The position numbers and the translations under genes are program-made. 64,000 nt of DNA, taken from positions 97,219,984-97,283,983 of the forward strand of contig JAUZTB010000001.1 of assembly GCA_034780895.1 (NCBI GenBank), written 5' to 3'. This stretch comes from Rhynchobatus australiae (lineage: Eukaryota). Positions 2,460 to 63,975 of this stretch are shown here, in pieces. The stretch's first letter is position 1; each line of letters starts with the position of its first letter. The notes beneath the pieces were generated by a model. The model ran no database searches, was not told the DNA's origin, and saw only the letters and a list, made by a program, of their open reading frames with translations.

Positions 2460-2575
2460 AACTACAGGTGTTATAAATCTGAAATAAAAATAATGAATGC
2501 GAGAAACACTTGATAGGTCAGGCAGCATATGTAGTAAGAATTTTTTTTTGCAGATGCTGCCTGATCTGTTGGCTG
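2460..2575. mobile_element. Short palindromic Penelope-end insertion
   Basis: aaatctgaaataaaa...aggtcaggcagcatatg followed by the inverted arm cagatgctgcctgatct. Confidence 0.6.
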
Positions 2576-5611: not shown

Positions 5612-6580
5612 AATGTAACAGATAATGCAGAAAATACTCAGCAAATTAAGCAGCATCTGTTGAGAGAGATACTTTCTTCTCTGGAGACTAAAAGAATGAG
5701 GGATGACCTTATTCAAACATAAGATCCTAAGGGTGTTTGACAGGGTAGATGTTGAGCTAAAATAAGAGCAAACGGGAGGGCATGCAAAGAAGCANNNNNN
5801 NNNNNNNNNNNNNNNNNNNNNNNNNNNNNNNNNNNNNNNNNNNNNNNNNNNNNNNNNNNNNNNNNNNNNNNNNNNNNNNNNNNNNNNNNNNNNNAATCTT
5901 AGAATTAGAGGGTACTGGTTTAAAACAGAGATGAGGAGAAATTTCTTTAGCCAGAGGGTAGTGAATTTATGAAATTCATTGCCATGTATTAGCAGTGGAG
6001 GCCCGATCATTGGAGGCGTTTAAGGAGGAGATAGATAGATATCTAGTTAGTCAAGGTATCAAGGGATATGGGGATAAGGCGGGAAATTGGAGCTAGAAAG
6101 GAATAGTTTTTTTTATCTTTAGCTCATGGAGCAGACTCGATGGGCTGAATGGCCTACTTCTGCTCCCTTGTCTTGTCATTTTGTGATGTGTTTTCACTAG
6201 TGGGAGAGTCACAAACAAGGAGACAAAATTACAAGTCAAGAGGCTGGTGCGTAGAAATTTCATCTCCCATAGTGAATCTCTGGAATTCTCTGGCCCCAAC
6301 AGTGCTTGAGTCTGGATCGAGATATATTTAAGGTAGAAATAAAATGTTTGAAAGATTGAGGAATGAAAGATGATGGAGAATTGGCACAGAAGAGGAGTTG
6401 GGGCCAGCATAGATCAGCCATGATCATGTTGAATGACAGAGTAGTCTTGAGAGGCCTGGTGGCCAACTCCTACTCCTGCTTTCTTATCTTAGCCTGAGGT
6501 AATGTTTCAGGGTGATGACTTTACATGAAAAGTTTGACCTACTCACATCATTTTCCTGCTCTTTCCAGTGATTTGCAACC
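5612..6580. mobile_element. Nested cluster: Penelope-end element split by an older CR1 3' end (about 5675-6490), itself split by a younger CR1 3' end (about 5757-6185)
   Basis: gacagggtagatgttgag (to 5756) resumes as atgtgttttcactagtgggagagtc (6186). Two separate CR1 tails (gggctgaatggcctacttctgctcc near 6142; ggccaactcctactcctgct near 6461). The Penelope end cagcatctgttgagagaga (5651) resumes as aatgtttcagg (6501). Confidence 0.7.
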
Positions 6581-6889
6581 TATCATCTCTAGCGAGAGTT
6601 AAATAGTTAAATTCATTCTCAAAAAGACATGCAGAGAAAAACTGTCAGCATATTAATCTGTGTTGGATGCAATCTTAGACTCTCTCCTAACCTCTGAATA
6701 TGCTGAACATTCTTTCTAAAGTTGAACAATTGAAAATCAAGTACATCTGATAATTTCTAGAATAAGTATGGCTATAAATGTAGATAACAGATACAGATAT
6801 ATTTGCTTCTGCTGATTATATGAACCTTTCAATACATAATTCAATAAAGAGCCTTCACTTCAATTTCCAGCATCTTCAAAAAAGAAGCC

Positions 6890-7022
6890 AGATCTGATGA
6901 AACTTCATTGACTTGAAGTGCTAATAGTGCTTCTCTTTCCACAGATGCTGCCTGATGTACTGAGTATTTCCAGCAATTTTTGTTTTTATTTCAGATTTCC
7001 AGTGCCTGCAGTTTTTGGCTTT
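6890..7022 (+). mobile_element. Penelope 3'-end (pLTR) fragment with decayed hammerhead core
   Basis: ctgatga at 6894-6900, then ttctctttccacagatgctgcctgatgtactgagtatttccagc...atttcagatttccag. Confidence 0.7.
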
Positions 7023-9243: not shown

Positions 9244-10231
9244 TCAGCCCTCTACTCTACTTCCTATATACTGCTGACTGAGTGTCCAGATTCTGCTCTA
9301 ACTCCATCTACAAGTTTGCAGATGATACCTCCGTAGTGGGCCAAATCTCAATTAATGATGAGTCAGAGTACAGGAAGAAGATAGAGAGCTTAGTGACATG
9401 GTGTCATGACGACAACCTTTCCCTCAATGTCAGCAAGATAAAAGAGCTGGTCATTGACTTCAGGAAAGGGGGCGGTGCTGAGGTCGGGAGGGTTGAGAGC
9501 TTCAAGTTCTGAGGAGTGAACATCACCAATGACGTGTCCTGGTCCAACCATGAAGATGCCNNNNNNNNNNNNNNNNNNNNNNNNNNNNNNNNNNNNNNNN
9601 NNNNNNNNNNNNNNNNNNNNNNNNNNNNNNNNNNNNNNNNNNNNNNNNNNNNNNNNNNNNNNNNNNNNNNNNNNNNNNNNNNNNNNNNNNNNNNNNNNNN
9701 NNNNNNNNNNNNNNNNNNNNNNNNNNNNNNNNNNNNNNNNNNNNNNNNNNNNNNNNNNNNNNNNNNNNNNNNNNNNNNNNNNNNNNNNNNNNNNNNNNNN
9801 NNNNNNNNNNNNNNNNNNNNNNNNNNNNNNNNNNNNNNNNNNNNNNNNNNNNNNNNNNNNNNNNNNNNNNNNNNNNNNNNNNNNNNNNNNNNNNNNNNNN
9901 NNNNNNNNNNNNNNNNNNNNNNNNNNNNNNNNNNNNNNNNNNNNNNNNNNNNNNNNNNNNNNNNNNNNNNNNNNNNNNNNNNNNNNNNNNNNNNNNNNNN
10001 NNNNNNNNNNNNNNNNNNNNNNNCCTCACAATCTACCTTGTTTGACTTTGCACCTTATTGTTTACCTGCAATGCACTTCCCTGTAACTGTGACACTACTC
10101 GGTATTATGTTATTGTTTTTATCCTGTACTACCTCAATGCACTGTGTAATGCATTGTTCTGTATGAACAGTGTGCAAGACAAGTTTTTCACTATACCTTG
10201 GAACAAGAGACAATAATAAACCAATACCAAT
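9244..10231 (+). mobile_element. 5'-truncated Rex1/Babar-type LINE (partly N)
   Basis: ORF 9282..9512 IYKFADDTSVVGQISINDESEYRKKIESLVTWCHDDNLSLNVSKIKELVIDFRK; 3' end aataaaccaataccaata near 10215-10232. Confidence 0.82.
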
Positions 10232-10789
10232 AACATCAAGCCAAGTATGTATCCATGTATCCACTAGCTAGCTCTCCCTGGATCCCATGTGATCTAACCT
10301 TCCAGAGAAGCCTTCCATGCGGGATTTTGTCAAAGGCCTTACTAAAGTCCACATAGGCAATATCCACAGCCTTGTCCTCATCAGTCCTCTTGGTTACCCC
10401 TTTGGAAAAACTTGAACAGATTTCTGAGACACAATTTCCCTGGCAGAAAGCCGTGCTAATGATCCCTAATCAGTCCTTGTCTATCCAAGTGCTGATTGAT
10501 CCTGTACCTCAGATTCCCCTCCAGTAACTTACCCACCTCTGATGTCAGGCTCACTAGCTTGTAGTTCCCTGACTTGTTTTTGCTGTCCTTCTGAAATAAT
10601 GGTACAAGTTTAGACACTCTCCAGTCTTCCACAACTTCATTACTGACTATAGGTAATGCAAATATCTGCAAAAGCCTCTGCAATTTCTTCCCTCTCTCCC
10701 CACAAAGTCCGGGGATGCACTTGGTCAGACCCTGGGGATTTATCCACCTTAATGTGCTTTAACACTGCCAATACCTCGTCTTTGGAAAT

Positions 10790-11715
10790 TTGTAAATTGA
10801 TAAATTAGTTTATTATTGTCACATGAAACGAGGTACAGTGAAAGAATTGACTTGCATACCATCCATACAGATCATTTCATTACAACAGTGCATTGAGGTA
10901 GTACAAGGTAAAACAGTAAAAGAAAGCAAAATAAACAGTTACAGTTACAGAGAAAGTGCAGAGCAGATAGACAATAAGGTGCAAGGCCATAAACAAGGTA
11001 GTTTGTGAGGTCAAGCATCAATCTTATCGTACTAGGGGACCATTCAGTAGTCTTATAACAGCGGGATAAAAACTGTCCTTGACCCTGGTGGTACGTGCTT
11101 TCAGGCTTTTGTATCTTCTGCCTGATGGNNNNNNNNNNNNNNNNNNNNNNNNNNNNNNNNNNNNNNNNNNNNNNNNNNNNNNNNNNNNNNNNNNNNNNNN
11201 NNNNNNNNNNNNNNNNNNNNNNNNNNNNNNNNNNNNNNNNNNNNNNNNNNNNNNNNNNNNNNNNNNNNNNNNNNNNNNNNNNNNNNNNNNNNNNNNNNNN
11301 NNNNNNNNNNNNNNNNNNNNNNNNNNNNNNNNNNNNNNNNNNNNNNNNNNNNNNNNNNNNNCTATGGTGCATTGATAAAAATTGGTGAGTGTCAAAGGGG
11401 ACATGTCAAATTTCTTTAGCCTCCTGAGGAAGTAGAGGTGCTGGTGAGCTTTCTAGTGGTTGGACCAGGACAGGCTATTGGTGATGTTCACTCCTAGGAA
11501 CTAGAAGCTTTCAACCCTCTTCACCTTACATCATTGAGGTAGATAGAAATATGTGCACTGCCCTCCTTCCTGAAGTCAATGACCAGCTCTTTTGTTTTGC
11601 TGACATTGAGGGAAAAGTTGTTGTCATGACACTATGTCACAAATCTCTCTATCTCCTTGTACACCAGCGCTATTTGAAATTTGGCCCACTTTGGTGGTAT
11701 CATCTGCAATCTTGC
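10790..11715 (-). mobile_element. Second Rex1/Babar-type LINE, opposite orientation (partly N)
   Basis: ORF 11024..11404(-) TLTNFYQCTI...PSGRRYKSLKARTTRVKDSFYPAVIRLLN; its 3' UTR (10810-11010) is homologous to the reverse complement of 10025-10220. Confidence 0.82.
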
Positions 11716-12860
11716 AGATGGATTTGTTTATGGTCCAAGGCATCACAACTCATTTGCCTCAATTCCTTAGCTCCCATGATATTTGCTGCAGTAAATCTGA
11801 TGGGAAATAGTCATTAAAAGTCTCACCCATCTCCTGTGGCTCCCCACATAGACTTCCATGCTGGTCTTTAAGAGTCCTATTCTGTTTCTTCCTGTAAGTT
11901 TATATTTCTAACAGAATAGAGTCTAAATAGTTTCACCAAATTTAGGTTAATGAATGAATTGGCAAACTTGGATAATGTTCTTGTGTGGGCCTCTTCCAAA
12001 TATGATTAAAAGCATTTGCAAAAATCAATTTGTGCCACATTGTGTCATAATGCTGAAGCATTAAAGAATTTTGAGGATATCATTAGCTTTGTAAGGCCAT
12101 CTGATTTTATTTTCTCCTTTTAAAATCATTTTTTCTATTAATTTTACTGTTAACAGACATTACCAGCAATGTAAATGTGCTTACATAGCCTGCGACATTT
12201 TGGGAGCAATCCAAACTTCTAACTAATATTTCAGCAGTGATTAGATGCTGTCTTTCATTGCTACTTCTGTAGTTTATAGAATAGTGTCCTTTCTGAAGGA
12301 CATGATTCTTATCTCTGCCAGCCTCATGGTGCCAGTGCACTCCCACACCAACTTGACTGGATCGATCTTGGTGGCCTCTTTATAAACGAGTTCCAAAAGC
12401 CCCACTAGTTACTTTAATTCAATGCATTTGAATTATGTTATTATGTTATCAGATTGATGCAAACTTTGAATCATGCTGATTCTACTTAAAGTTAATATGA
12501 GATGCATGTAAAGACATAGCTAGCTAGGCTTGTTTTATTATGATATCACATCTTTCTAAAACATTGAACAGACTGGAATCCTGATCTATGTAATTTGTAG
12601 TGCAAATTGATGATAGTGCATTGAGAGAAACAAGACATCTGGCGCCTGAGTAAACAGTGCAAAGACATTTAAGAACCATTTAAGGATTGGGAAATAAATG
12701 CAGGAAAGATTGAAACAGAGAGTGAATTAAAGGGACAAATTCAATATCTAATCAGGTGGAGAGAAAGAAAAAAGATTGACTAAAAGAATGAATGGAAATG
12801 CAACAAAACTTAAAGTTTAATTTTTTAAAAATTCTCTCTGGAAAGTTTGATACTGGAAGG

Positions 12861-13049
12861 CACAAGAGATTCTGCGGGTGCTGGGCTCTGGAGCAATACA
12901 CACAAAATGCTGGAGGAACTCAGCAGGTCAGGCAGTATCTGTGGAGGGAAATAGTTGGTGTTTCTGGTTGAGACCCTTCATCAGTCCTGTTTATTTCCCT
13001 CCTTATGTGCTGCCTAACCTGCTCAGTTCCTCCAGCATTTTGGGTGTAC
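12861..13049. mobile_element. 189-bp fold-back Penelope-end insertion with 13-bp TSD and hammerhead core in the loop
   Basis: TSD tgatactggaagg (12848-12860) / tgatacaggaagg (13050-13062); inverted arms about 12900-12953 and 12992-13048. Confidence 0.8.
12951..12990 (-). ncRNA. Minimal hammerhead ribozyme-like motif, probably decayed
   Basis: Minus strand: acagga CTGATGA agggtctcaacca GAAA caccaac. Both conserved boxes are intact; stems II and III are mutated. Confidence 0.55.
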
Positions 13050-13829
13050 TGATACAGGAAGGGATGTGATTCCATATTTACAATAGTGCCTGAGTGATTG
13101 TTTGGCAGTAATTAACAATTACTGTACAATATTTTTAAAAAGCTCCAATAGTTTGTAACGCAAGACTTAGCTTTCTGTTGTGGGTTTTAAAGGACAGATA
13201 CATCAAGTTCTGACAAAACAGGAAGGCTGAGTATGATGCCTTTTTCACATATAGCCAAAGTGTGTCAACGGTTAGCTGCCAGTTTCCACTTCATGATGCC
13301 CCTGACTTCTGCATGTCTAGAAGCCAGAGGCATCATGCTGTAAGTTGGATGCCATGCATTCATTTGACCATCCACTCTGCTGCAAGCCTGAACTGAATCA
13401 ATCATTTGAATGGGATAATCTACCCTGTGGAATAGGTGCTATGATAATGTATATGAGTGCTTTAGTTGTTTACTTTATCTTAAAGCTTTTTTCATTCATT
13501 TATTAGTGATATAATGTACTTTTAATTTTTAATTAAATTCTGAAATTATTTACGACTAAATAGTTCTGAAATTTCCTTCACTATCAGATAAATTTAAAGA
13601 AATATTAGAAAAGAATTTGACTTCTGGGGAACCATCAAAGGCAATCGGGATGGCACCTCATATTACATTGCTTGAGACATGCTTGTTGTCCAGAGCTTCC
13701 AGTGCCTCAGCAGGAACCTGGGGACTGTGGACAGCATGTCCAGGTAGTAGACTGAGTCTGGGAAGATCCACCCCAGAATGAAATATAAAGTAATTTAATC
13801 TGAAGATCAAATTTTGGATAGTTGCAACT

Positions 13830-22249: not shown

Positions 22250-23820
22250 AAGGAAAAATTGTTGGCACAACAATCTGCTGAAGGAACTCAGCAGGTCAAG
22301 TAGCTTTTGTGGGGGAGAAAGGAATTGTTGGTGTAGATAGGTGGATGATAGGTTGAGGCAGACCAAAAAATAAGGCAGATGGAGCCAGGTGGGCGGAGGG
22401 GAGTGTGAAGGTATGGTTAGATAGGAGGGTAATAAGCAGGAATAAGTGCTGGGCCCCCGCTATTGATGTCCAGGATTTATACATCTCTATCCCTTATCAG
22501 GAAGGTCTTAAGTCCCTCCATTTCTTTGTGCAACAATGATTCAATTAGCTAACTGGGCAACACAGTCGGCATGGATGAGTTGGGCCAAAGGGCCTGCTTC
22601 CATGCTCTATGACTCTATGACTCTAAAACCAGTTCTCCTCCACCAACACTCTCATCCACGTGGCAAAACGTGTTCTTAGCCTGAACAACTGTTCTTTTGA
22701 CTCCTGTCACTTCCTACAGATCAAATGTGTAGCCATGGGCCCTAACTACGTGGAACTTTTCATTGGCTATGTGGAACAATCCTTGTTCCAAACATTCTCT
22801 GGTACCACTTCCCAACTCCTCCATTACATTGACAACTACATTGGTGATGCTTCATGCACCCCAGCAAAACTGATCAATTTTATTACCTCTGTTACTAACC
22901 CACCCTAGTCTCAAATTTGCAACAGCAATTTCTAATACTTCTCTCTATTTTCTAGATTCTGTTTCCATCTCAGGAGACAAACTATCCACTGACATTTACT
23001 GCGAGCCCACAGACTCCCATAGCTAACTAGACTATGTCTCTTTCCACCCTGTCCCTTGTAAGGATGCCATCCCTTTCTTCTGCTACATCTGCTCTCAAGA
23101 TGACGTCTTCAATTCCAGAACATCTGAAATGTCCTGCTTTTTCAGGAAACATGGCTTCTCTTCTGCTGTGGTTGATTGAGCTCTCTCTAGCATTCCCTCT
23201 GTTTCTTGGACTTCTGCTCTCACCCCAGAGCAGAGATAGAGCTCCCGTAGTCCTCACCTTTCACCCGACTAACCTCCGCATCCTTCGTCATTTCTGCCAG
23301 CTGCAACGAGATCCCACCACTTGTCACATCTTCTTCTCCCCGCTCTGCCTCCTGCAAGGACCGCTTCCTCCATGACTCCAAGGTCTGCTCTTCCCTCCCC
23401 ACCCACCTGTCCATGACCCTGGCACTTTCCCCTGCAGTGACAGGAGGCACAAAAATTGTTCTTGCACCTTCTCTGTCACTACAATCCAGGGACTTAAACA
23501 GCCCTTCCAGGTGAGGCATAGATTCACATGCACCTCCTCCAACCTTGTCTACTGCCCAGTGCTCCCGATGTGGCCTCCTTGCAGAGTACCTGTGTTCTGT
23601 CTGCAACAGCCATTCCAAGCTCCTGGTTACATGTCATTTCAGCTCCCCTTCACATTCCCACACCGACTTGTCTGTCCTTGGCCTTCTCAACTGCCAGGAT
23701 AAGGTCCAATGCAAACTAGAGGAACAACACCTCAAATTCTACATGGGTAGTGTACAACCCAATGACATGAATGTTGTATTTTCCAATCTCAGGTAACCCT
23801 TGCCTCCTCTCTCCCCCCCC
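22250..23820 (+). mobile_element. Penelope-like retroelement remnant: inverted pLTR piece (about 22250-22440), then RT and GIY-YIG endonuclease, frameshifted
   Basis: ORF 22660..22908 LNNCSFDSCHFLQIKCVAMG...LLHYIDNYIG (GVAMG and YIDD motifs). 23511-23796 FTCTSSNLVYC / CSRCGLL...HFSSPSHS...KLEEQHL...QPNDMN is a PLE-type GIY-YIG domain. A CR1-type tail is inserted at about 22545-22625. Confidence 0.85.
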
Positions 23821-23924
23821 ANNNNNNNNNNNNNNNNNNNNNNNNNNNNNNNNNNNNNNNNNNNNNNNNNNNNNNNNNNNNNNNNNNNNNNNNNNNNNNN
23901 NNNNNNNNNNNNNNNNNNNNNNAA

Positions 23925-24566: not shown

Positions 24567-24673
24567 TGTTACAAACCAGCAACAAAAGAAACACACCGGG
24601 TCATATACAAGTGTTAAAAACAATGTTATTAATAACTACTTATGATAATAAGAAAAATAAAAGTAAAACTGTT
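24567..24673. mobile_element. LTR terminus, running into an N gap
   Basis: tgttacaaaccagcaacaaaagaaacacaccg... closely matches 25165-25271; preceded by ATAT. Confidence 0.7.
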
Positions 24674-24773
24674 NNNNNNNNNNNNNNNNNNNNNNNNNNN
24701 NNNNNNNNNNNNNNNNNNNNNNNNNNNNNNNNNNNNNNNNNNNNNNNNNNNNNNNNNNNNNNNNNNNNNNNNN

Positions 24774-25164
24774 CTGACCAGTATCACCACCCCTCCTCCT
24801 CTTCTCGCCCCCTCCCTATCCCCTTTAAAACACTGAAAACCAGTAATATTCAATATCCATTCCTGCCCTGATGTCAGCCACGTCTCTGTAATAGCCACAA
24901 TATCGTAGTCCCCCATACTTCTCCAAGCTCTCAGTTCATCTCCCTTATTCCTGATGCTTCTTACATTTAAATAGATGCACTTTAGCCCATCCACCTTACT
25001 ACTTTTATAGCCTGTACTCTGCTTCTCCTTCCTCAAAGCCTCTCTATCTGTCAGATCTGACTTTTCCCCATCCCCTTCTTCCTCTGACCTACTCCTCCGG
25101 TTCCCTCCCCCCTCGCAATCCAGTTTAAACCCTCTCGAACCACCCCAGCAAACCTGGCTGCAGG
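24774..25164 (-). mobile_element. CR1 ORF2 N-terminal APE endonuclease fragment
   Basis: ORF 24629..25192(-) LKCIYLNVRSIRNKGDEL...YDIVAITETWL...DREGARRGGGVVILV. Confidence 0.85.
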
Positions 25165-26001
25165 TGTTACGAACCAGCAACAAAAGAAACACACCGAGTC
25201 ATGTAAAAGTGTTAAAAGCTACTTTATTAATAACTTTTTATGATAATAAGGAAAATAAAAGTAAAAATGTTAGTGCTAGAAGTAAAAATGTTAAATCTTA
25301 AACATTAACCCCAAAATCTAAACTCGTAGTGTGTGTGTGGCAAACTCCCAAACTCCAGGAATAGTTCTTGAAGTTCAGTTCAGCAAGCCCTAAGGTGAAA
25401 CGTGAGCAAAGGCTTCTTCAACAACCACCATTGACTGAAGACAAAACGTAGATGTAGAGAGAGAAAACAGAGATATTACGAAATCCAAATGTTCCACTTT
25501 GGAACCCATGCGACACCTCAGTGTCTACTCAGCAGTGACTACTCCACCGCATCTGCCTCACCTGAGAGGCACTCGAATCATGGCCGTCCACACAAATACC
25601 TGCTTCCTTCTATAGGCCAACAACAAAGTGAACTCCACCGCTCTGTTCTGAAATATCTGCCACCCTGAAAAGCATCCGAGATGTGGCCGTCCACACAAAC
25701 ATCTGTTTCCCTCTACAGGTTAATGACAAAGTGGACTCCACCGGATTACTCCAAAAATCCATATGTGGATTGTAGTGACAGACACAGTTACTGTTTTTCA
25801 TCCATCAATAGAGACTGGCAGGCTGGCGTCTCTCTCACTCTCTCCTCCTCTCTCCTCTGACTGATTCCAACTGCTTCAAAAACATCATTACATCCTTCAG
25901 CTTCTGTTAACGTAAGCACGCCCCACACACACGCACACGCACACACACGCCACTGCTTTATCTTAAAGGGACATTCACCAATAGCAACCTAGTCCGTAAC
26001 A
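25165..26001 (-). mobile_element. Complete LTR of about 837 bp (Gypsy-like, no internal genes)
   Basis: TG...CA ends with terminal inverted repeat TGTTACG / CGTAACA; tttatt near 25222 gives AATAAA on the minus strand; internal repeat of about 95-100 bp x2 at 25543-25745; followed by ATAT. Confidence 0.75.
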
Positions 26002-28644: not shown

Positions 28645-28880
28645 ATAAAATCAAAATATCAGCAGTTGTTGGAAACTTGAAAGAAAAACAAACATTTTTG
28701 GAAATATTCAGCAGATTTGTTAACATTTGTCGAGAGAGAAGCACAGCCAATGTTTCAGTCACTTTTCTTCAGACCTTTTATCTGATAAAAGATCTTCAAA
28801 CTAAAACATTAACTTTGTATCTCACTCCACAAATGCTGTCTGACCTGCTGGGTGTTTCCAGTAATTTTAATTTTTATCCT
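28645..28880. mobile_element. Palindromic Penelope-end insertion with two diverging hammerhead remnants
   Basis: Left arm ggaaatattcagcagattt...gagagagaagcacag; right arm ctccacaaatgctgtctgacctgctgggtgtttccag. Centre has minus-strand CTGAAGA aaagtgact GAAA (28753-28772) and plus-strand ctgataa...aaaacattaac (28782-28813). Confidence 0.65.
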
Positions 28881-32549: not shown

Positions 32550-32762
32550 TAGTCATAGGGTCATATAGCACAGAAACTGGCCCTTCAGCCCAACTCATCC
32601 ATGCTGACTCTGTTGCCCAGTGAGTTAGTCCCATATGTCCACATTTGGCCCATAGCCATTAAACCTCTCCTATCCATGTACTTATCCACTATTTTTGGCA
32701 GCTCATTCCAAATACACATCACCCTTTACATGAAAAAGCTGCCCCTGATGTACCTTTTAAAT
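32550..32762 (-). mobile_element. CR1 3' tail about 50 nt downstream of exon 2
   Basis: agtcatagggtcatatagcacagaaactggcccttcagcccaactcatccatgctgac, reverse complement of the tail seen at 22565-22625. Confidence 0.7.
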
Positions 32763-42274: not shown

Positions 42275-43145
42275 TTTCATCTTACTGTATTGCTTGAAAT
42301 TGAGTGTTATAGTAGCACTAAATGTTACAAAACTGGACTGAGGTCTTCCCTCACTTTCCCATCCCAATCTCTATTCCATGACTTACCTCTGTAGAAAATG
42401 CCAGTTCCGTTTGGGCTGCAGACATTGTATCCTGCACAGTGGTCCTGCTACCTCACTGACAAAACAGTTTAATATCTCTTTTGAAAGATAGTACCTCAAA
42501 CAAAAAAAAATCAGCCATAATAAAACTAAATGCTGGAAATACCAAGCATATGTGAAGACAGTTACAGATTTAATGCCTCAGGTTTGATGACCTATCATCA
42601 GAACTGGGTGTTTGTCATATGCATTAAAAGTGAAGTTCTCCTTTGAAAAATGTTTTATGATTTTAAAGAAATCTAGTTTTTATATTACTTAGCAGTATAC
42701 ATGCAATTTTCAATCCAGCACTCTTCATCCTTGTACTTCAATGTCTTTGATTTCATTTTCATTGCTGAGGCACCCTAGAGGTTTGACACATTAAATTATA
42801 AATTATCCTTAACATTTTTGCAGCTTTTATCCATGTTTATACCTGTAAGTTGATCACAAATAATTCAGACAAGTATCTAACTATAAAGATGCTTTCTTCG
42901 GAAAGTGCCCTGTGTAAAATGATCAAGACGATCAGGAGCACTTTGCAGTGGATTTTCATCTTACTGTATTGCTTGAGATTGAGCATTATAGTAGCACTAA
43001 ATGTTACAAAACTGGACTGAGGTCTTCCCTCACTTTCCCATCCTAATCTCTATTCCATGACTTAACTCTGTAGAAAATGCCAGTTCTGTTTGGGCTGCAG
43101 ACTTTGTATCGTACACACTGGTCCTTCTATATCACTGACAAAACA
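42275..43145 (+). repeat. Spaced direct duplication: 42275-42466 and 42954-43145 (192 bp each)
   Basis: Ungapped manual alignment gives 13 mismatches in 192 bp (about 93% identity); 487-bp spacer. Confidence 0.92.
42520..42608 (-). mobile_element. Short Penelope-end fragment with hammerhead remnant
   Basis: aaatgctggaaatacc...; minus strand cagttCTGATGAtaggtcatcaaacctGAGGcattaa at about 42570-42606. Confidence 0.55.
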
Positions 43146-43334: not shown

Positions 43335-43500
43335 ATAAACTGTTGGAAGTCTGAAATGAAAACAGAAAGTGCTGGAAACAGCAAGTCCAACAGCACTTGT
43401 GGATAAAAAAAACAGTTATTATTTCAGAAACATTAACTGTTTCTCCCTTCTCAGATGCTGCCTCACCTGCTGAGTGTTTCCAACATTTTCCGTTTCTATT
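43335..43500. mobile_element. Palindromic Penelope-end insertion (centre deleted)
   Basis: tctgaaatgaaaacagaaagtgctggaaaca...aacagtta / taactgtttctccc...cagatgctgcctcacctgctgagtgtttccaacattttc. Confidence 0.65.
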
Positions 43501-43589
43501 GTGATTTAATTGGCAAGTTACTCTTGTAAGAGGTCTACTTCAACAAACTAATATTTATCAACAGGGCAATTTTCTAATTCTTTAATGAA

Positions 43590-47114: not shown

Positions 47115-49230
47115 GTCTCATAATTTTAAAAACCTCTAGAGGGTCTCCCCTCAGCCTCCAACGCTCTAAGAACAACCCAAATTTGTCCAAACTTTCCTAC
47201 TTTCCTTATAGCTCATGCCCTCTAATCCAGGCAGCATCCTGGTAAACCTCTTCTACACCCTCTCCACAGTCTCCACATCCTTCCAATAATGGGACAGCCA
47301 GAAATGCATGCAATACCCTGGGTGCAGTCTGACTAAAGTTTTATATAAGTGCAGCATGACTTCCTTACTCTCACACTCAACACCCCTACCAATGAAGGCA
47401 CATATTCCATACACCTTCTTTACCACCTTATCCACTTGCATAGCCACTTTCATTGAACGATGGACTTGGACCCCAGGATCCCTCTGTACCTTAATGCTAT
47501 TAAGGAGCCTACCATTAACTGTATACTTTCTCTTTTCATTTGACCTCCCAAAGTGCAAAACCTTGCACTTGCCTGGGTTAAACTCCTTCTGCCACTGCTC
47601 CGTCCATTTCTCTAACTGATCTACATCCTGCTGTATTCTTTGATAATCTTTCATATGTTCACAACTCCACTAATCTTGGTGTCATCTGTAAACTTGCTAA
47701 TCCACCATCTACCTTTTCAACCAAATCATTGATATATATCACAAACAACTGAGGTCCCAGCACTGATCCTTATGGAACACCACTGGTCACGGACCTCCAG
47801 CCAGAATAACAGCCTTCCACCCCTACTCTCTCTCTTCTAAGGGCAAGCCAGTTCTGAATCCAAACTTGCAATTTATGCTGGATCCCATGTATATTTATCT
47901 TCTGAATCAACAAATCATGAAGGACTTTGTCAAATGCCTCACTAAAGTCTATGTAGATAATGCCCACTGCCTTACCCTCATCACGCAGCTTTGTCACCTC
48001 CTCAAAAAACTCAATCCAGTTAGTAAGACGTGACCTGTCCCCCACAAAGCCATGCTGACTGTCCCTGAGCAGGCCATGCTTTTCCAACTGTGCATAAATC
48101 CTATCCCTCAGTACCCTCGCCAATAGCTTCCCTACCACTGACCTGAGGCTCACTGGCCTATAATTACCTGGATTATTCCTACTTCCATTCTCGAACAAAG
48201 GCACAACATTTGCTACTCTCCAGTCCTCCAGGACCTTGTATGTTGCTAGTGAAGATGAAAATATCTTTGTCAAAGCCCCAGCAATCTCCTTACTTACTCC
48301 GTTCAGTATTCTGGGATATATTCCATCAGGCCTCGGGGACTTATCCAGAGAAGACACAGCACTACCTCCTCCTTCATCTCAAAATATCCCAGCACATTAG
48401 CATGTCCCACTCTGTTTTCACTATCCTCCAACTTCTTCTCCTCAGTAAATACCGATGCAAGGTACTCATTTACTGCCTCAGCCACTTGCTCTGACACTAA
48501 GCACAAATTCCCTCCTTTATCCTTGAGTGGACCTACTTTCTCCTTAGTTATCCGCTTTTCCTTAATATAAATATAAAATTCCTTGGGATTATACTTGACC
48601 CTGCTCGCTAAGGACATTTCATGGCCTCTTCTGGCCTTCCTAATCACCTGCTTGAGCACTTTCATGCTACCTTTATATTCCACCCGGGCCCAGTCTGATT
48701 TTAGCTTCCTAAACCTTCTGTAGGCGTCCTTCTTCTTCCCCTGAGGACCTCTCAGGTCATCCACGGTTCCCTTACCTTACCATCCTTGTCCTTACTCCTT
48801 CCTGGAACATGCTGATCCTGAACTCTGATCAGCTGGTCTTTAAACAACTCCCACACGTCAGACATGGACTTGTCCAACAGCAGCTGCTTCCAATCAATGC
48901 CCCTTGGCTCCAACCTTATTCTGTTGTAATTTTCCCTTATCCAGTTTAGTACATTTCCGCAAGATCCAATTTTAGCCTTATTCGTAACTATCTTAAAACA
49001 TAATAAATTGTGGTCATTATTCCCACCATAAGGTGTGTCACCTGGACTGGTTCATTTCCCAAAACAAAGTCCAGTCATCTAGCTGGACTCTCCACACATG
49101 GTTTCAAGAACCCCTCTTGGATGCACTGAAGAAAGGCTGTCCCATCTAAGCTCCTTGTATTAAGGGAGTTTCAATCAATCCTCGGGAAGTTAAGGTCCCC
49201 CACTATGACAACCAATTGTTCTTGCCAATC
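47115..49230 (-). mobile_element. CR1 LINE ORF2 remnant of about 2.1 kb, frameshifted
   Basis: ORFs 48303..48764, 47770..48357 (KSPRPDGIYPRIL, DWRVANVVPLF, NYRPVSL, QHGF, YIDFSEAFDKV, VTSGVP) and 47253..47654 (W...FNPGKCKVLHFG) are consecutive pieces of CR1 RT. Confidence 0.92.
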
Positions 49231-49437
49231 TACCTGTCACAGAGCAGCATTGGTGAATGTGGCAATTCCACAGTCTGCAGAGAATAATTTCAGGCTCCAC
49301 TCTGTGGACACCATCCACTGTGTCATATTATCATTGTGAAAGATAGGATAGATGAGGATCAGATCTAACTGCTCAAAACAGTGCATCTATGAGCACCTGT
49401 GATCCATCATTAGCAACAGAACTATATGTATCACTGA

Positions 49438-49568
49438 GACACAAGTGATTGTAAAGGCTGGACTCTGGAGCAACAAACAATCTGCTGGAGGAACTCGTAG
49501 CATCAAGCAGCATCTGTGGGAGGGAAAGGAATTGATGACGGTTTGGGTCGAGACCCTGCATCAGGACT
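49438..49568 (-). mobile_element. Penelope 3'-end insertion with hammerhead remnant
   Basis: Clearly homologous to 54036-54167; minus strand agtcCTGATGCa gggtctcgaccc AAACCGTC. Confidence 0.7.
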
Positions 49569-53770: not shown

Positions 53771-54035
53771 TTGATCTATGTCTTTCTCTCCATGTTTGCT
53801 TTGTCTCTGTATCTATGGATGCTTCATATCTGTGCTTTATGATCTGCTGAGGTTTAGGCTCAAAGCATTGGCAAAGGCATTGAGCAGGGAAGAAGATGGT
53901 GGTACAGTGGGAACATTAGGATTAATGACCCAGGTTGGGGCCCAAGTTTGGGGTCAAAGTGTAAATTTGTTTTTAAAGAGGAACAGAGAGATTCCAGGGT
54001 AACTGGCAAGGTCACAAAAACAGATGTGGATTGGT

Positions 54036-54180
54036 GACACAAGAGACTGCAGAAAATGGAATCTGGAGCAACAAACAGTCTACTGAAAGAACTCAGTGGG
54101 TCAAGCAGCATCTGTGAGAGGAAAGGAATTATCAACGTTTTGGGTCGAAACCCTGCATCAGGACTGTGTGGGTTGCGGTT
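54036..54180 (-). mobile_element. Penelope 3'-end insertion with 17-bp TSD and hammerhead remnant
   Basis: TSD aacagatgtggattggt (54019-54035) / aacagatgtgggttggt (54181-54197); minus strand cagtcCTGATGCa gggtttcgaccc AAAACGTT gat. Confidence 0.8.
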
Positions 54181-62110: not shown

Positions 62111-63019
62111 GTAATTAATGGTCTTTTATTTGAATTTCTGTTACACAAACTTGCAAATCTAAGTTAAAGTAGTTATTCAAATTGGCTTCCATCGGAATTT
62201 AACTTATTTTCTACCATATTTTGTTTATATACTCTTGATAAAATTATCTATAATATTAACATCTATCAGAAAGGAATTTTCATAAATATCAGATTATCTC
62301 AAATGTAAATTTAAAAGGAGTTTAAACTGTTTTGATATAATTGTCATTATGAAATAGTTTTAATTTCTTTTGGGTTGATTTTTGTTTAAACATTCATGAC
62401 AAAGATCTTCCTCTCTTAGTGCATTTGCCTCCAGAATGTCTACATTCTTTTATGAACAAACTTAAAAGATATCTGTAGCAGAATTTTCTCAATCAGTTTT
62501 TTTAACAATTAACTTGGTTGCATATTTGGAGGGAACTAGAAGATAAGATGGTGGTAAAGCAGTACATTTGCAGGTGAATCAAATTTGAAAAATTATGACA
62601 ATTCAAAGAGAATAGATAAATCTGAGTCTTCAGACAATATCAAATACCATTTCGATCCATTGTCATCCTGTAGGTACAGAGGGTAAGAATAAAAAATGAA
62701 GGGAAGGGAAACCTAAATCCAGGCATGAATCTGAAAGCAATTAATTGGGTAGCACTTGTTCATTGGCTGTTGATATGAAGGGTGAGGAGCTTGAGATAGT
62801 TGCTTCATGTTACAGTCCCTGTGGGTCGACATTGCAGTGTGTCTATAAGGAAGTGCAGTTATGCTTCAGTTAATAGTCAAATGCCACTGTATTAACCAGC
62901 TCCATTATAGAAGATAATTGATTCTAGTTGACTTAATCATCATGAAGCAGTTGTGCAGGCATGTGGACCTAGCAGTGTGTCTATTTGAACAAAACAACTT
63001 TGATCACCCTTGAAAATCA

Positions 63020-63215
63020 AAAGAACTGCAGCTGCTAGAAATCTGAAATAAAAACAGGAAATGCTGGAAAAACTCAGCAGGTCAAGCAGCCTCTACGGAA
63101 AGAGAAACAGAGTTAACATTTCAGGTTGGAGATCCTTTGTCTGACAAATGGTCTCTCCCTCTCCTTCACAAATAATTACAGACCTGAGTGCCTCTAGCAT
63201 TGTCTGTTTTTATTT
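63020..63215. mobile_element. Palindromic Penelope-end insertion
   Basis: ctgcagctgctagaaatctgaaataaaaacaggaaatgctggaaaaactcagcaggtcaagcagc...gttaacatttcaggt, then a decayed inverted arm gacctgagtgcctctagcattgtctgtttttattt. Confidence 0.7.
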
Positions 63216-63694
63216 TGGTCACCCTGGCATGTTGGCTTCCATGAAAAGCTGCTGGAGAAATAACAAAAATTATGGTCAGTGCTTCTGGGGAAGGAGCTAA
63301 TGCAGCTAGTCAGGTATTCATGCCTTAAATCATCAACACTGCTCTTGATGATGCAAGAGTGAACAAATATTAGAATTGCCCAAGTGCCCACATCCACATG
63401 TTCTAACACAACTGCCTCATCATGAGCATGGAGAATTGACTTTTCAGTGTATTAATCGACAGATAAATAGAGTTATTTTCATCCCTGAGGATCTGAGTGT
63501 GCATTACTGTTGGCGCCTAGACTATAAAGAAGGGGATTGCTCAGTAAGAAACTGAATCATTCCACTTGTGATGCTAGAGGAAAATAAATCACATCAGTTA
63601 CCACAACAAATTATTAGAATATAAGTGCCAACAGGAGAAAATAAAATAAAGGAAAACTGTTTAATAAATGTCTGAATCCTAATTAAATAACCCT

Positions 63695-63975
63695 ATAATA
63701 AAACACAGAAAACACTGGAAAAACTCAGCAGGTNNNNNNNNNNNNNNNNNNNNNNNNNNNNNNNNNNNNNNNNNNNNNNNNNNNNNNNNNNNNNNNNNNN
63801 NNNNNNNNNNNNNNNNNNNNNNNNNNNNNNNNNGGCAGCATCTGTGGAAAGAGAAACGGTTAACATTTCAGGTTTAGGACCCTTTATCAGAACTGAGAAG
63901 GGGAGAGAGAGAGGGAGAAGCAAGCTAGCCTAGGTAGCAGAGAAGTAGAGGAGAGCGATGGGTGGAACAAAGGAA
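63695..63975 (-). mobile_element. Penelope pLTR fragment with hammerhead remnant, split by a 100-N gap
   Basis: aaactcagcaggt[N100]ggcagcatctgtggaaagagaaac; minus strand cagttCTGATAAagggtcctaaacctGAAATGTTaaccg at 63857-63895. Confidence 0.7.

What the first reader, a model, noticed from the sequence alone, without database searches (positions are those of the whole stretch)
12861..13049. Dispersed family of Penelope-end mini-insertions carrying a minimal hammerhead ribozyme
Seen: about 12 related 100-280 bp pieces (near 2.5, 5.6/6.5, 6.9, 12.9, 22.3, 28.7, 42.6, 43.4, 49.5, 54.1, 63.1 and 63.8 kb). Overlaying the copies that keep the motif gives roughly cagtc-CTGATGA-a-gggtctcgaccc-GAAA-cgtY-gactg. 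That is stem I, the CUGANGA box, a hairpin stem II, GAAA and a loopless palindromic ACGT stem III. Different copies keep different parts (both boxes at 12.96 kb, a perfect stem II at 49.55 kb, ACGT at 54.13 kb, stem I at 63.87 kb); no single copy is intact. Established: minimal hammerheads with palindromic stem III, proposed to act as dimers, occur in the pLTRs of Penelope-like elements. Inference: this is a very abundant ribozyme-bearing family mobilised by the kind of PLE seen at 22.3-23.8 kb. The class is known; whether this family is described I cannot tell.
Basis: partly seen in the sequence, partly recalled or inferred. Interest (0 to 1): 0.7.

Follow-up and report, generated by a model that had tools for sequence, protein, structure and literature searches.

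The report
Penelope retroelement stubs carrying decayed hammerheads
These short repeats are real, extremely numerous stubs of a known kind of jumping gene (Penelope-like elements) that carry a miniature self-cutting RNA motif, broken in every copy in this stretch, and their ends suggest that the copied RNA likely began right at the motif and was not cut by it.

Summary
Observation confirmed. The named sites are remnants of one region of a Penelope-like element (PLE, Neptune-type linker) in a shark or ray genome, about 190 insertions per Mb. The focal 189-bp insertion (12861-13049) is two head-to-head arms between a 13-bp target-site duplication. Its hammerhead core is broken, as in every window copy, but 7,503 genomic sites keep both boxes plus ACGT (169 in the control). 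It is not one family moved in trans: at least six subfamilies exist, five found about 270-390 nt behind a PLE stop codon. Stem covariation was not significant; cleavage is untested. The class is published (Cervera 2014; Frangieh 2024). The scan has noted this family in this genome before, and the 5' pile-up in other shark genomes.

The parts
12861..13049 (.). Focal insertion: two head-to-head arms of the PLE end region (subfamily A1)
12848..12860 (+). Left copy of a 13-bp target-site duplication
   Evidence: one mismatch to the right copy
13050..13062 (+). Right copy of the target-site duplication
12861..12984 (-). Long arm: hammerhead core through the far start site (about +100), including the roughly 35-nt 'tail'
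12952..12989 (-). Minimal hammerhead remnant; CUGAUGA and GAAA kept, but U16.1, G16.2 and the 10.1-11.1 pair are broken; predicted dead
   Evidence: probability of stem I and of the 10.1-11.1 pair both 0.0
12982..13049 (+). Short arm: first 8 nt of the element joined through a shared CTG to +5, ending near +65-73, without tail
2475..2571 (.). Old subfamily C inverted pair without core
5617..5672 (-). Subfamily C arm; a possible displaced core half at about 6496-6511 is not significant alone
6888..7014 (+). Subfamily C single arm with decayed core
22269..22328 (-). Subfamily B1 arm without core, inverted in front of the PLE ORF remnant
22459..23796 (+). 5'-truncated, frameshifted PLE ORF: RT, Cys linker, C-terminal endonuclease region; its own 3' end is lost in the N gap at 23822
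28672..28875 (.). Subfamily C inverted pair
42516..42608 (-). Subfamily C arm with CUGAUGA
43337..43507 (.). Subfamily C inverted pair joined at about -9
49436..49568 (-). Subfamily B1 single long arm starting at -32; A9C core
54032..54166 (-). Subfamily B1 single long arm starting at -33; A9C core
63018..63217 (.). Subfamily C inverted pair
63697..63898 (-). Subfamily C arm split by the N gap 63734-63833

Best explanation
The pieces are short, decaying insertions of the hammerhead-bearing end region of several endonuclease-bearing Penelope-like element subfamilies, likely written into the genome from uncut element RNA whose 5' end probably lies at the first bases of hammerhead stem I. Shown: the motif follows a PLE ORF; copies have target-site duplications; 3' ends fall at two sites (about +60-73 and +96-107 from the predicted cut); 5' ends pile up at -33 to -31; inverted pairs combine one long and one short arm. 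Inferred: the element's RT-endonuclease cuts both target strands and starts copying inside the RNA at the two sites, as shown in vitro for an anole PLE (PMC11167929). It runs off the RNA 5' end at an initiator-like A about 30 nt behind a TATA-like island. When both strands are extended, the two cDNAs join head to head through short homologies such as CAG/CTG, which gives the focal palindrome. Longer copies would come from read-through transcripts. Cleavage is probably not needed for spreading, since lineages with A9C or U4A reached high copy numbers. Individual copies are neutral fossils.
For: PLE contiguity in loci L045, L048, L275, L052, L121, L322, L311 and L132. RT Pfam hit, E 1.3e-8 in 1 of 4 proteins; 2 were weak and 1 had none. 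Nearest named proteins are from rays and sharks. 5' ends: of 124 core-anchored copies, 60 start at -43 or later, 12 between -44 and -100, 52 further up. In 37 short non-inverted copies the match to the element rises 9, 13, 24, 31 of 37 at -34, -33, -32, -31. Unselected single arms: 18 of 53 start at -36..-27 and 1 of 53 at -3..+3 (p=0.0006). The short fraction is about half in all five subfamilies, including B1 and B2 with only a 3-bp stem I. TAT[A/T] occurs 40 times at -31..-27 from the A in 61 long copies. TSD score >=8 in 26 of 55 pairs and 8 of 32 singles, against 1.5% and 1.2% of mismatched-flank controls. Long+short arms in 28 of 30 classifiable pairs, against about 49% expected. A9C 1,996 (spacer of 12 or 13) against 231 for A9G+A9U (spacer of 12); U4A 1,872 against 356 for U4C+U4G. 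PMC11167929: ribozyme mutants do not affect insertion in vitro, and uncut RNA is the dominant substrate.
Against: No RNA 5' end was measured. The same CAG|TC with a pyrimidine tract and an A about 29 nt upstream also reads as a splice acceptor with branch point. In D. virilis transcription starts 46 bp before the intron (PMC2377424), whose 3' end maps to helix I (PMC4209133), so there the RNA does not begin at the ribozyme. TTTATA is the reverse complement of TATAAA, so the island may face the other way. No extra G from a cap was seen at -33 (8 of 37). 13 of 53 unselected single arms start inside or behind the ribozyme away from both peaks. Covariation is not significant. Alignment ends are fuzzy by a few bases at 85-93% identity. 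The TATA-like hits are inherited, so they count as five lineages and not 40 events.
Confidence: 0.7

Rival explanations
1. Same origin, but the 5' pile-up is a structural or protein roadblock (cDNA fold-back through stem I, the CAG/CTG quasi-palindrome, or factors bound at a 3' splice site) and not an RNA start.
For: Pairs are centred on the CAG-NN-CTG octamer; the reversed form precedes the core in 17 cases against 117 normal. Stem I and II fold with probability 0.93 and 1.0 in an intact A copy. The ORF ends in a donor-like GTAA and the motif begins at an acceptor-like CAG. PMC3846280 proposes self-priming at palindromic junctions.
Against: Subfamilies with a 3-bp stem I show the same short fraction. 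Non-inverted copies share the same start. A spliced-junction pattern found 3 sites against 1 control, none with ORF sequence upstream.
Confidence: 0.17
2. One reading: a non-autonomous, ribozyme-active short element family (SINE- or retrozyme-like) copied as a unit in trans, perhaps through dimer cleavage and RNA circles.
For: Short copies share a sharp start and two ends. Intact cores number in the thousands. One tandem pair of D cores 76 bp apart was seen (L151). Tandem retrozymes are reported for one chondrichthyan (bioRxiv 10.64898/2026.07.22.740005).
Against: Junctions of pairs differ copy by copy. Short and long copies share subfamily letters. Copies are dispersed monomers. The core decays like the tail, mostly at CpG. 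Short copies lack the upstream TATA-like island. Core-mutant lineages spread widely.
Confidence: 0.1
3. The motif is a hammerhead look-alike: promoter or start-codon sequence of the element that no longer cuts in any lineage.
For: Covariation score 0.151 against 0.148 in shuffles (199 of 500). The active dimer fold (-19.3) is less stable than a mispaired dimer (-34.9) for an intact A copy. Core changes are fixed in three subfamilies.
Against: All canonical core letters, the extra A, G10.1-C11.1 and ACGT match the published minimal motif in A1 and D. The inner stem I pair changes C-G to U-A in subfamily C (35 of 61 copies). The anole homologue cuts when the element's protein is present (PMC11167929).
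Confidence: 0.03

Closest known systems
Minimal hammerheads (min-HHR) in pLTRs of metazoan Penelope-like elements (Cervera and De la Pena 2014, PMC4209133; read parts 1-2 of 4, supplements not seen)
   Same: Type I, no helix III, extra base between 9 and 10.1, G10.1-C11.1, palindromic 15.2-16.2, mostly single dispersed motifs from truncated PLEs, some opposite-strand pairs, several consensus families per genome.
   Different: That text names fishes, coelacanth (about 4,000) and Xenopus (about 9,000) but no cartilaginous fish in the parts read. Here there are 7,503 canonical plus about 3,900 variant exact cores among roughly 350,000 remnants. Its core variant was U3-A8; A9C and U4A lineages are not in the parts read.
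Poseidon element of Anolis carolinensis, PAc (Frangieh et al. 2024, PMC11167929; read parts 1-2 of 4)
   Same: Hammerhead at the pLTR-ORF junction, two internal RT start sites that define the tail, both strands extended, uncut RNA used, ribozyme dispensable in vitro.
   Different: The element here has a Cys linker of Neptune type. A likely start codon lies 22 nt behind the cut (untested). A 5' pile-up and one-long-one-short pairing are not reported in the parts read.
EN+ PLE insertion architecture: inverted pLTR, 30-40 bp tail at one end, TSD (Arkhipova et al. 2013, PMC3846280; Craig et al. 2021, PMC8557442; passages read)
   Same: Head-to-head inverted copies, one-sided tail, TATA followed by an Inr-like sequence in the pLTR, TSDs.
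   Different: TSDs here are mostly 10-16 bp (25 of 31 pair calls) against 8-10 bp in A. vaga; most units here are bare stubs without ORF.
Non-LTR retrozymes (bioRxiv 10.64898/2026.07.22.740005; part 1 of 5 and passages read, supplements closed)
   Same: PLE-derived, type I hammerhead.
   Different: Those are tandem arrays; these are dispersed single or inverted stubs.

Membership tests
PLE minimal hammerhead | CUGANGA and GAAA boxes around stem II | tested here: met
   7,503 genomic hits against 169; met in A1, D and C, not in B1/B2 (A9C) or most A2 (U4A)
PLE minimal hammerhead | Palindromic ACGU, no loop III, cleavable base 17 | tested here: met
   ACG are majority or CpG-decayed letters and T is 87-92% in all six subfamilies; base 17 is C or U. 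Broken in the focal copy.
PLE minimal hammerhead | Extra base after A9 and a G10.1-C11.1 pair | tested here: met
   subfamily C often has A-U or G-U at this pair
PLE minimal hammerhead | Stem covariation | tested here: inconclusive
   Not above shuffles on 33 copies; one clear two-sided change at the inner stem I pair
PLE minimal hammerhead | Location in a PLE pLTR | tested here: met
   About 270-390 nt behind the ORF end in five subfamilies; not shown for C
PLE minimal hammerhead | Self-cleavage (as dimer or with protein) | not testable with these tools
   Only folding energies were computed
EN+ Penelope-like element | RT followed by a C-terminal GIY-YIG endonuclease | tested here: met
   The window remnant aligns along proteins annotated RT + PF01541; Pfam on the window fragments alone found no relevant family
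EN+ Penelope-like element | Inverted truncated copy, one-sided tail, TSD | tested here: met
Neptune clade | CX2-5CxxC linker between RT and endonuclease | tested here: inconclusive
   A Cys linker is present in the window remnant and its homologues; no tree was built
Non-LTR retrozyme | Tandem units each with a hammerhead | tested here: not met
   Window and random loci hold single or inverted copies; one tandem pair in L151
Described Dfam/Repbase family | Match to a library entry | not testable with these tools

The most novel reading that the evidence does not exclude
The stubs are a fossil record of Penelope chemistry in vivo. The element RNA starts at the first base of its hammerhead, so cutting would remove the cap and act as an off-switch rather than a step of mobilisation. 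Lineages that broke the core (A9C, U4A) spread as well as those that kept it. A protein dimer primes the two target strands at the two different start sites, which gives one long and one short arm in nearly every pair.
Probability: 0.3. Interest if true: 0.6.

Novelty: new member of a known kind. Interest (0 to 1): 0.35.

Why it matters
The class is known, so as a discovery it is ordinary. Its value is statistical. The role of the PLE hammerhead is stated to be unclear (PMC8557442, passage), and this genome holds hundreds of thousands of insertions whose ends record which RNA was copied. They point to uncut RNA, a fixed 5' end at stem I, and natural core-mutant lineages, each directly testable. 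For annotation, about 2.5% of the sampled bases are these stubs (16,528 of 655,918), and they should not be counted as active ribozymes.

Tried and rejected
Rfam scan of the window: 6 weak unrelated matches, no hammerhead. Pfam on 4 window ORF fragments: nothing relevant. Sequencing-run search: no RNA holder listed; all 24 runs were contigs. Laying 4 of those runs (other organisms, RNA status guessed) on an ORF-end-to-tail stretch showed many related contigs but no listed donor-to-acceptor joint and no ends; 117 joints were not shown and contigs cannot show starts. Spliced retrocopies: 3 hits against 1 control, none real. Cap-derived extra G: not seen. Selection on individual copies: core against tail 0.94/0.96 (A1), 0.97/0.95 (D), 0.91/0.89 (B1), 0.90/0.86 (B2), 0.87/0.83 (C). 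Tail as ORF start: open frame from +22 in 5 of 6 subfamily profiles, but no match among 120 homologous proteins, which mostly lack N-termini; left open. MITE or DNA-transposon reading rejected: the arms are unequal, TSD lengths vary, and the sequence is contiguous with an RT. Paper searches listed no paper whose title or abstract start describes this family in sharks or rays, or an A9C hammerhead. The library lacks most subscription papers, and figures and supplements of PMC4209133 and PMC3088659, which may list these, were not seen.

Full report
Numbering. Positions are counted from the predicted cut (0 = first base behind it); stem I begins at -33. Core numbering (U4, A9 and so on) and the labels initiator, TATA and splice site are standard knowledge, recalled. 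Subfamily names are mine.

1. Observation. The focal region matches about a dozen other window sites. A profile built from 30 genomic copies gave 18 hits at E<=1 in the window, against 1 weak hit in 5 shuffles and none in the reversed window. All named sites pass a per-site shuffle test except 6.5 kb. The focal insertion spans 12861-13049 between 13-bp repeats with one mismatch. It folds back on itself. The minus arm carries both boxes and the long end. The plus arm starts with the element's first 8 bases, jumps through a shared CTG to +5 and ends short. Its core is broken at U16.1, G16.2 and 10.1-11.1.

2. Abundance. The genome has 2.23 Gb. Exact counts: 465 for one 25-nt core (0 control); 7,503 for both boxes plus ACGT (169 control); 9,036 for a 28-nt tail stretch (0 control). 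In 80 ten-kb stretches taken at round coordinates of large contigs (655,918 non-N bases) I found 152 arms, 27 of them paired, so 125 insertions, or 191 per Mb (bootstrap 157-224; 18 of 80 stretches had none). That extrapolates to roughly 350,000. The window is typical.

3. What it belongs to. Clustering 355 of 462 hits (those covering at least 75 columns) gave six groups: A1, A2, B1, B2, D and old C. Mean identity to their profiles is 93% (D) to 83% (C). Five have their own C-rich upstream region, which leads back about 270-390 nt to the last codons of an ORF. That ORF has an RT. Its best named relatives are from rays and sharks, and several relatives carry RT plus GIY-YIG. The window's 22459-23796 remnant aligns along such proteins, including a Cys linker; PMC8557442 names this linker for Neptune and Nematis. 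Its nearest genomic relatives end in B1-type ribozymes. So the stubs are ends of PLEs themselves.

4. The ribozyme. A1 and D fit the minimal hammerhead of PMC4209133. An intact A copy folds stems I and II with probability 0.93 and 1.0, but the active dimer is less stable than a mispaired one. Formal covariation on 33 copies was not above shuffles (199 of 500). The inner stem I pair is U-A in 35 of 61 C copies and C-G elsewhere. Among 162 core-spanning copies not selected on the core, 9 are intact (A1 3/34, D 5/12, C 1/61, A2 0/15, B1 0/25, B2 0/15). Decay is mainly at CpG. A9C is fixed in B1 and B2 (24 of 25 and 14 of 15) and U4A is the majority in A2. Genome counts are 1,996 and 1,872, against 231 and 356 for the other two letters at those positions (the A9C pattern allowed two spacer lengths, its control one). 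PMC3088659 states that core changes usually lower activity but that some natural variants stay active (its figure was not visible), so inactivity of these lineages is inferred.

5. Ends. 3' ends cluster at +60-73 and +96-107. This matches the two internal RT start sites that define the tail in the anole element (PMC11167929). For 5' ends I used 147 core-anchored loci (150 fetched, 3 duplicates dropped), then dropped 7 of subfamily C (upstream profile unreliable) and 16 beside gaps. Of 124, 60 start at -43 or later, 12 at -44..-100 and 52 further up. The step lies at -32/-31. In sets not selected on the core, 18 of 53 single arms start at -36..-27 and 1 at the cut (38 non-C arms from random loci and the window, plus 15 of 30 tail-anchored loci; 9 beside gaps and 6 paired were left out). 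A TATA-like island lies 29-31 nt before the A at -32 in all five profiles; PMC3846280 describes a TATA plus Inr-like pair in a rotifer pLTR. Spliced copies were not found.

6. Pairs. Of 59 non-C pairs, 46 join a long and a short arm, 3 two long, 2 two short, and 8 were unclassifiable. Without those picked by the focal query, 28 of 30 classifiable (37 examined) are long+short, against about 49% if independent. TSDs pass score 8 in 26 of 55 pairs (one locus counted twice) and 8 of 32 singles, against under 2% of controls; most are 10-16 bp. Junctions vary from copy to copy.

7. Mechanism. Shown: anatomy, linkage, end distributions, decay. Taken from the literature: two-strand cutting, internal starts, uncut template (PMC11167929). 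Inferred: RNA start at stem I, joining of two cDNAs, dispensable cleavage. Against: no RNA data here; the same letters read as a splice acceptor; the D. virilis start lies upstream of its intron (PMC2377424; PMC4209133).

8. Known and new. Class, architecture and two start sites are published. Seven paper searches listed no description of this family in cartilaginous fish; I judged this from titles and abstract starts, and Dfam/Repbase could not be checked. Also read: PMC6155905 (passages) and bioRxiv 10.64898/2026.07.22.740005 (part 1 of 5 and passages). Earlier scan notes report the family three times in this genome and the 5' pile-up in other shark or ray genomes. I had noted the pile-up and the initiator idea before reading them, and they are not independent evidence. 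Verdict: real, a new member of a known kind, interest 0.35.

Noticed in passing
window 42275-42466 and 42954-43145: A 192-bp direct repeat at 93% identity flanks the 42.5-kb subfamily C copy; a local duplication, unexplained.
   Followed up: no
window 22546-22622: A short insert inside the PLE ORF remnant, 84% like 32551-32627; a younger repeat landed in the dead element.
   Followed up: no
window 9300-11725, 24629-25198, 47253-48776: Fragments of other LINE-like repeats, partly in inverted arrangement; CR1/L2-like by recall only.
   Followed up: no
L151:1500-1602: Two intact subfamily D cores in tandem, 76 bp apart; a natural candidate for dimer cleavage.
   Followed up: no
L045, L275, L322, L132 at the ORF end: The stop codon is preceded by G and followed by C (GTAAC, donor-like) in several subfamilies, and the ribozyme starts at an acceptor-like CAG; the C-rich region may be an intron retained in all copies.
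   Followed up: partly
proteins P0005, P0006, P0017: Skate and ray gene models named as host-gene isoforms contain this PLE's RT region; either annotation read-through or exon capture.
   Followed up: no
window 12982-12989 and many loci: The octamer at the element start appears reversed in 17 cores against 117 normal, a junction signature of head-to-head pairs.
   Followed up: partly
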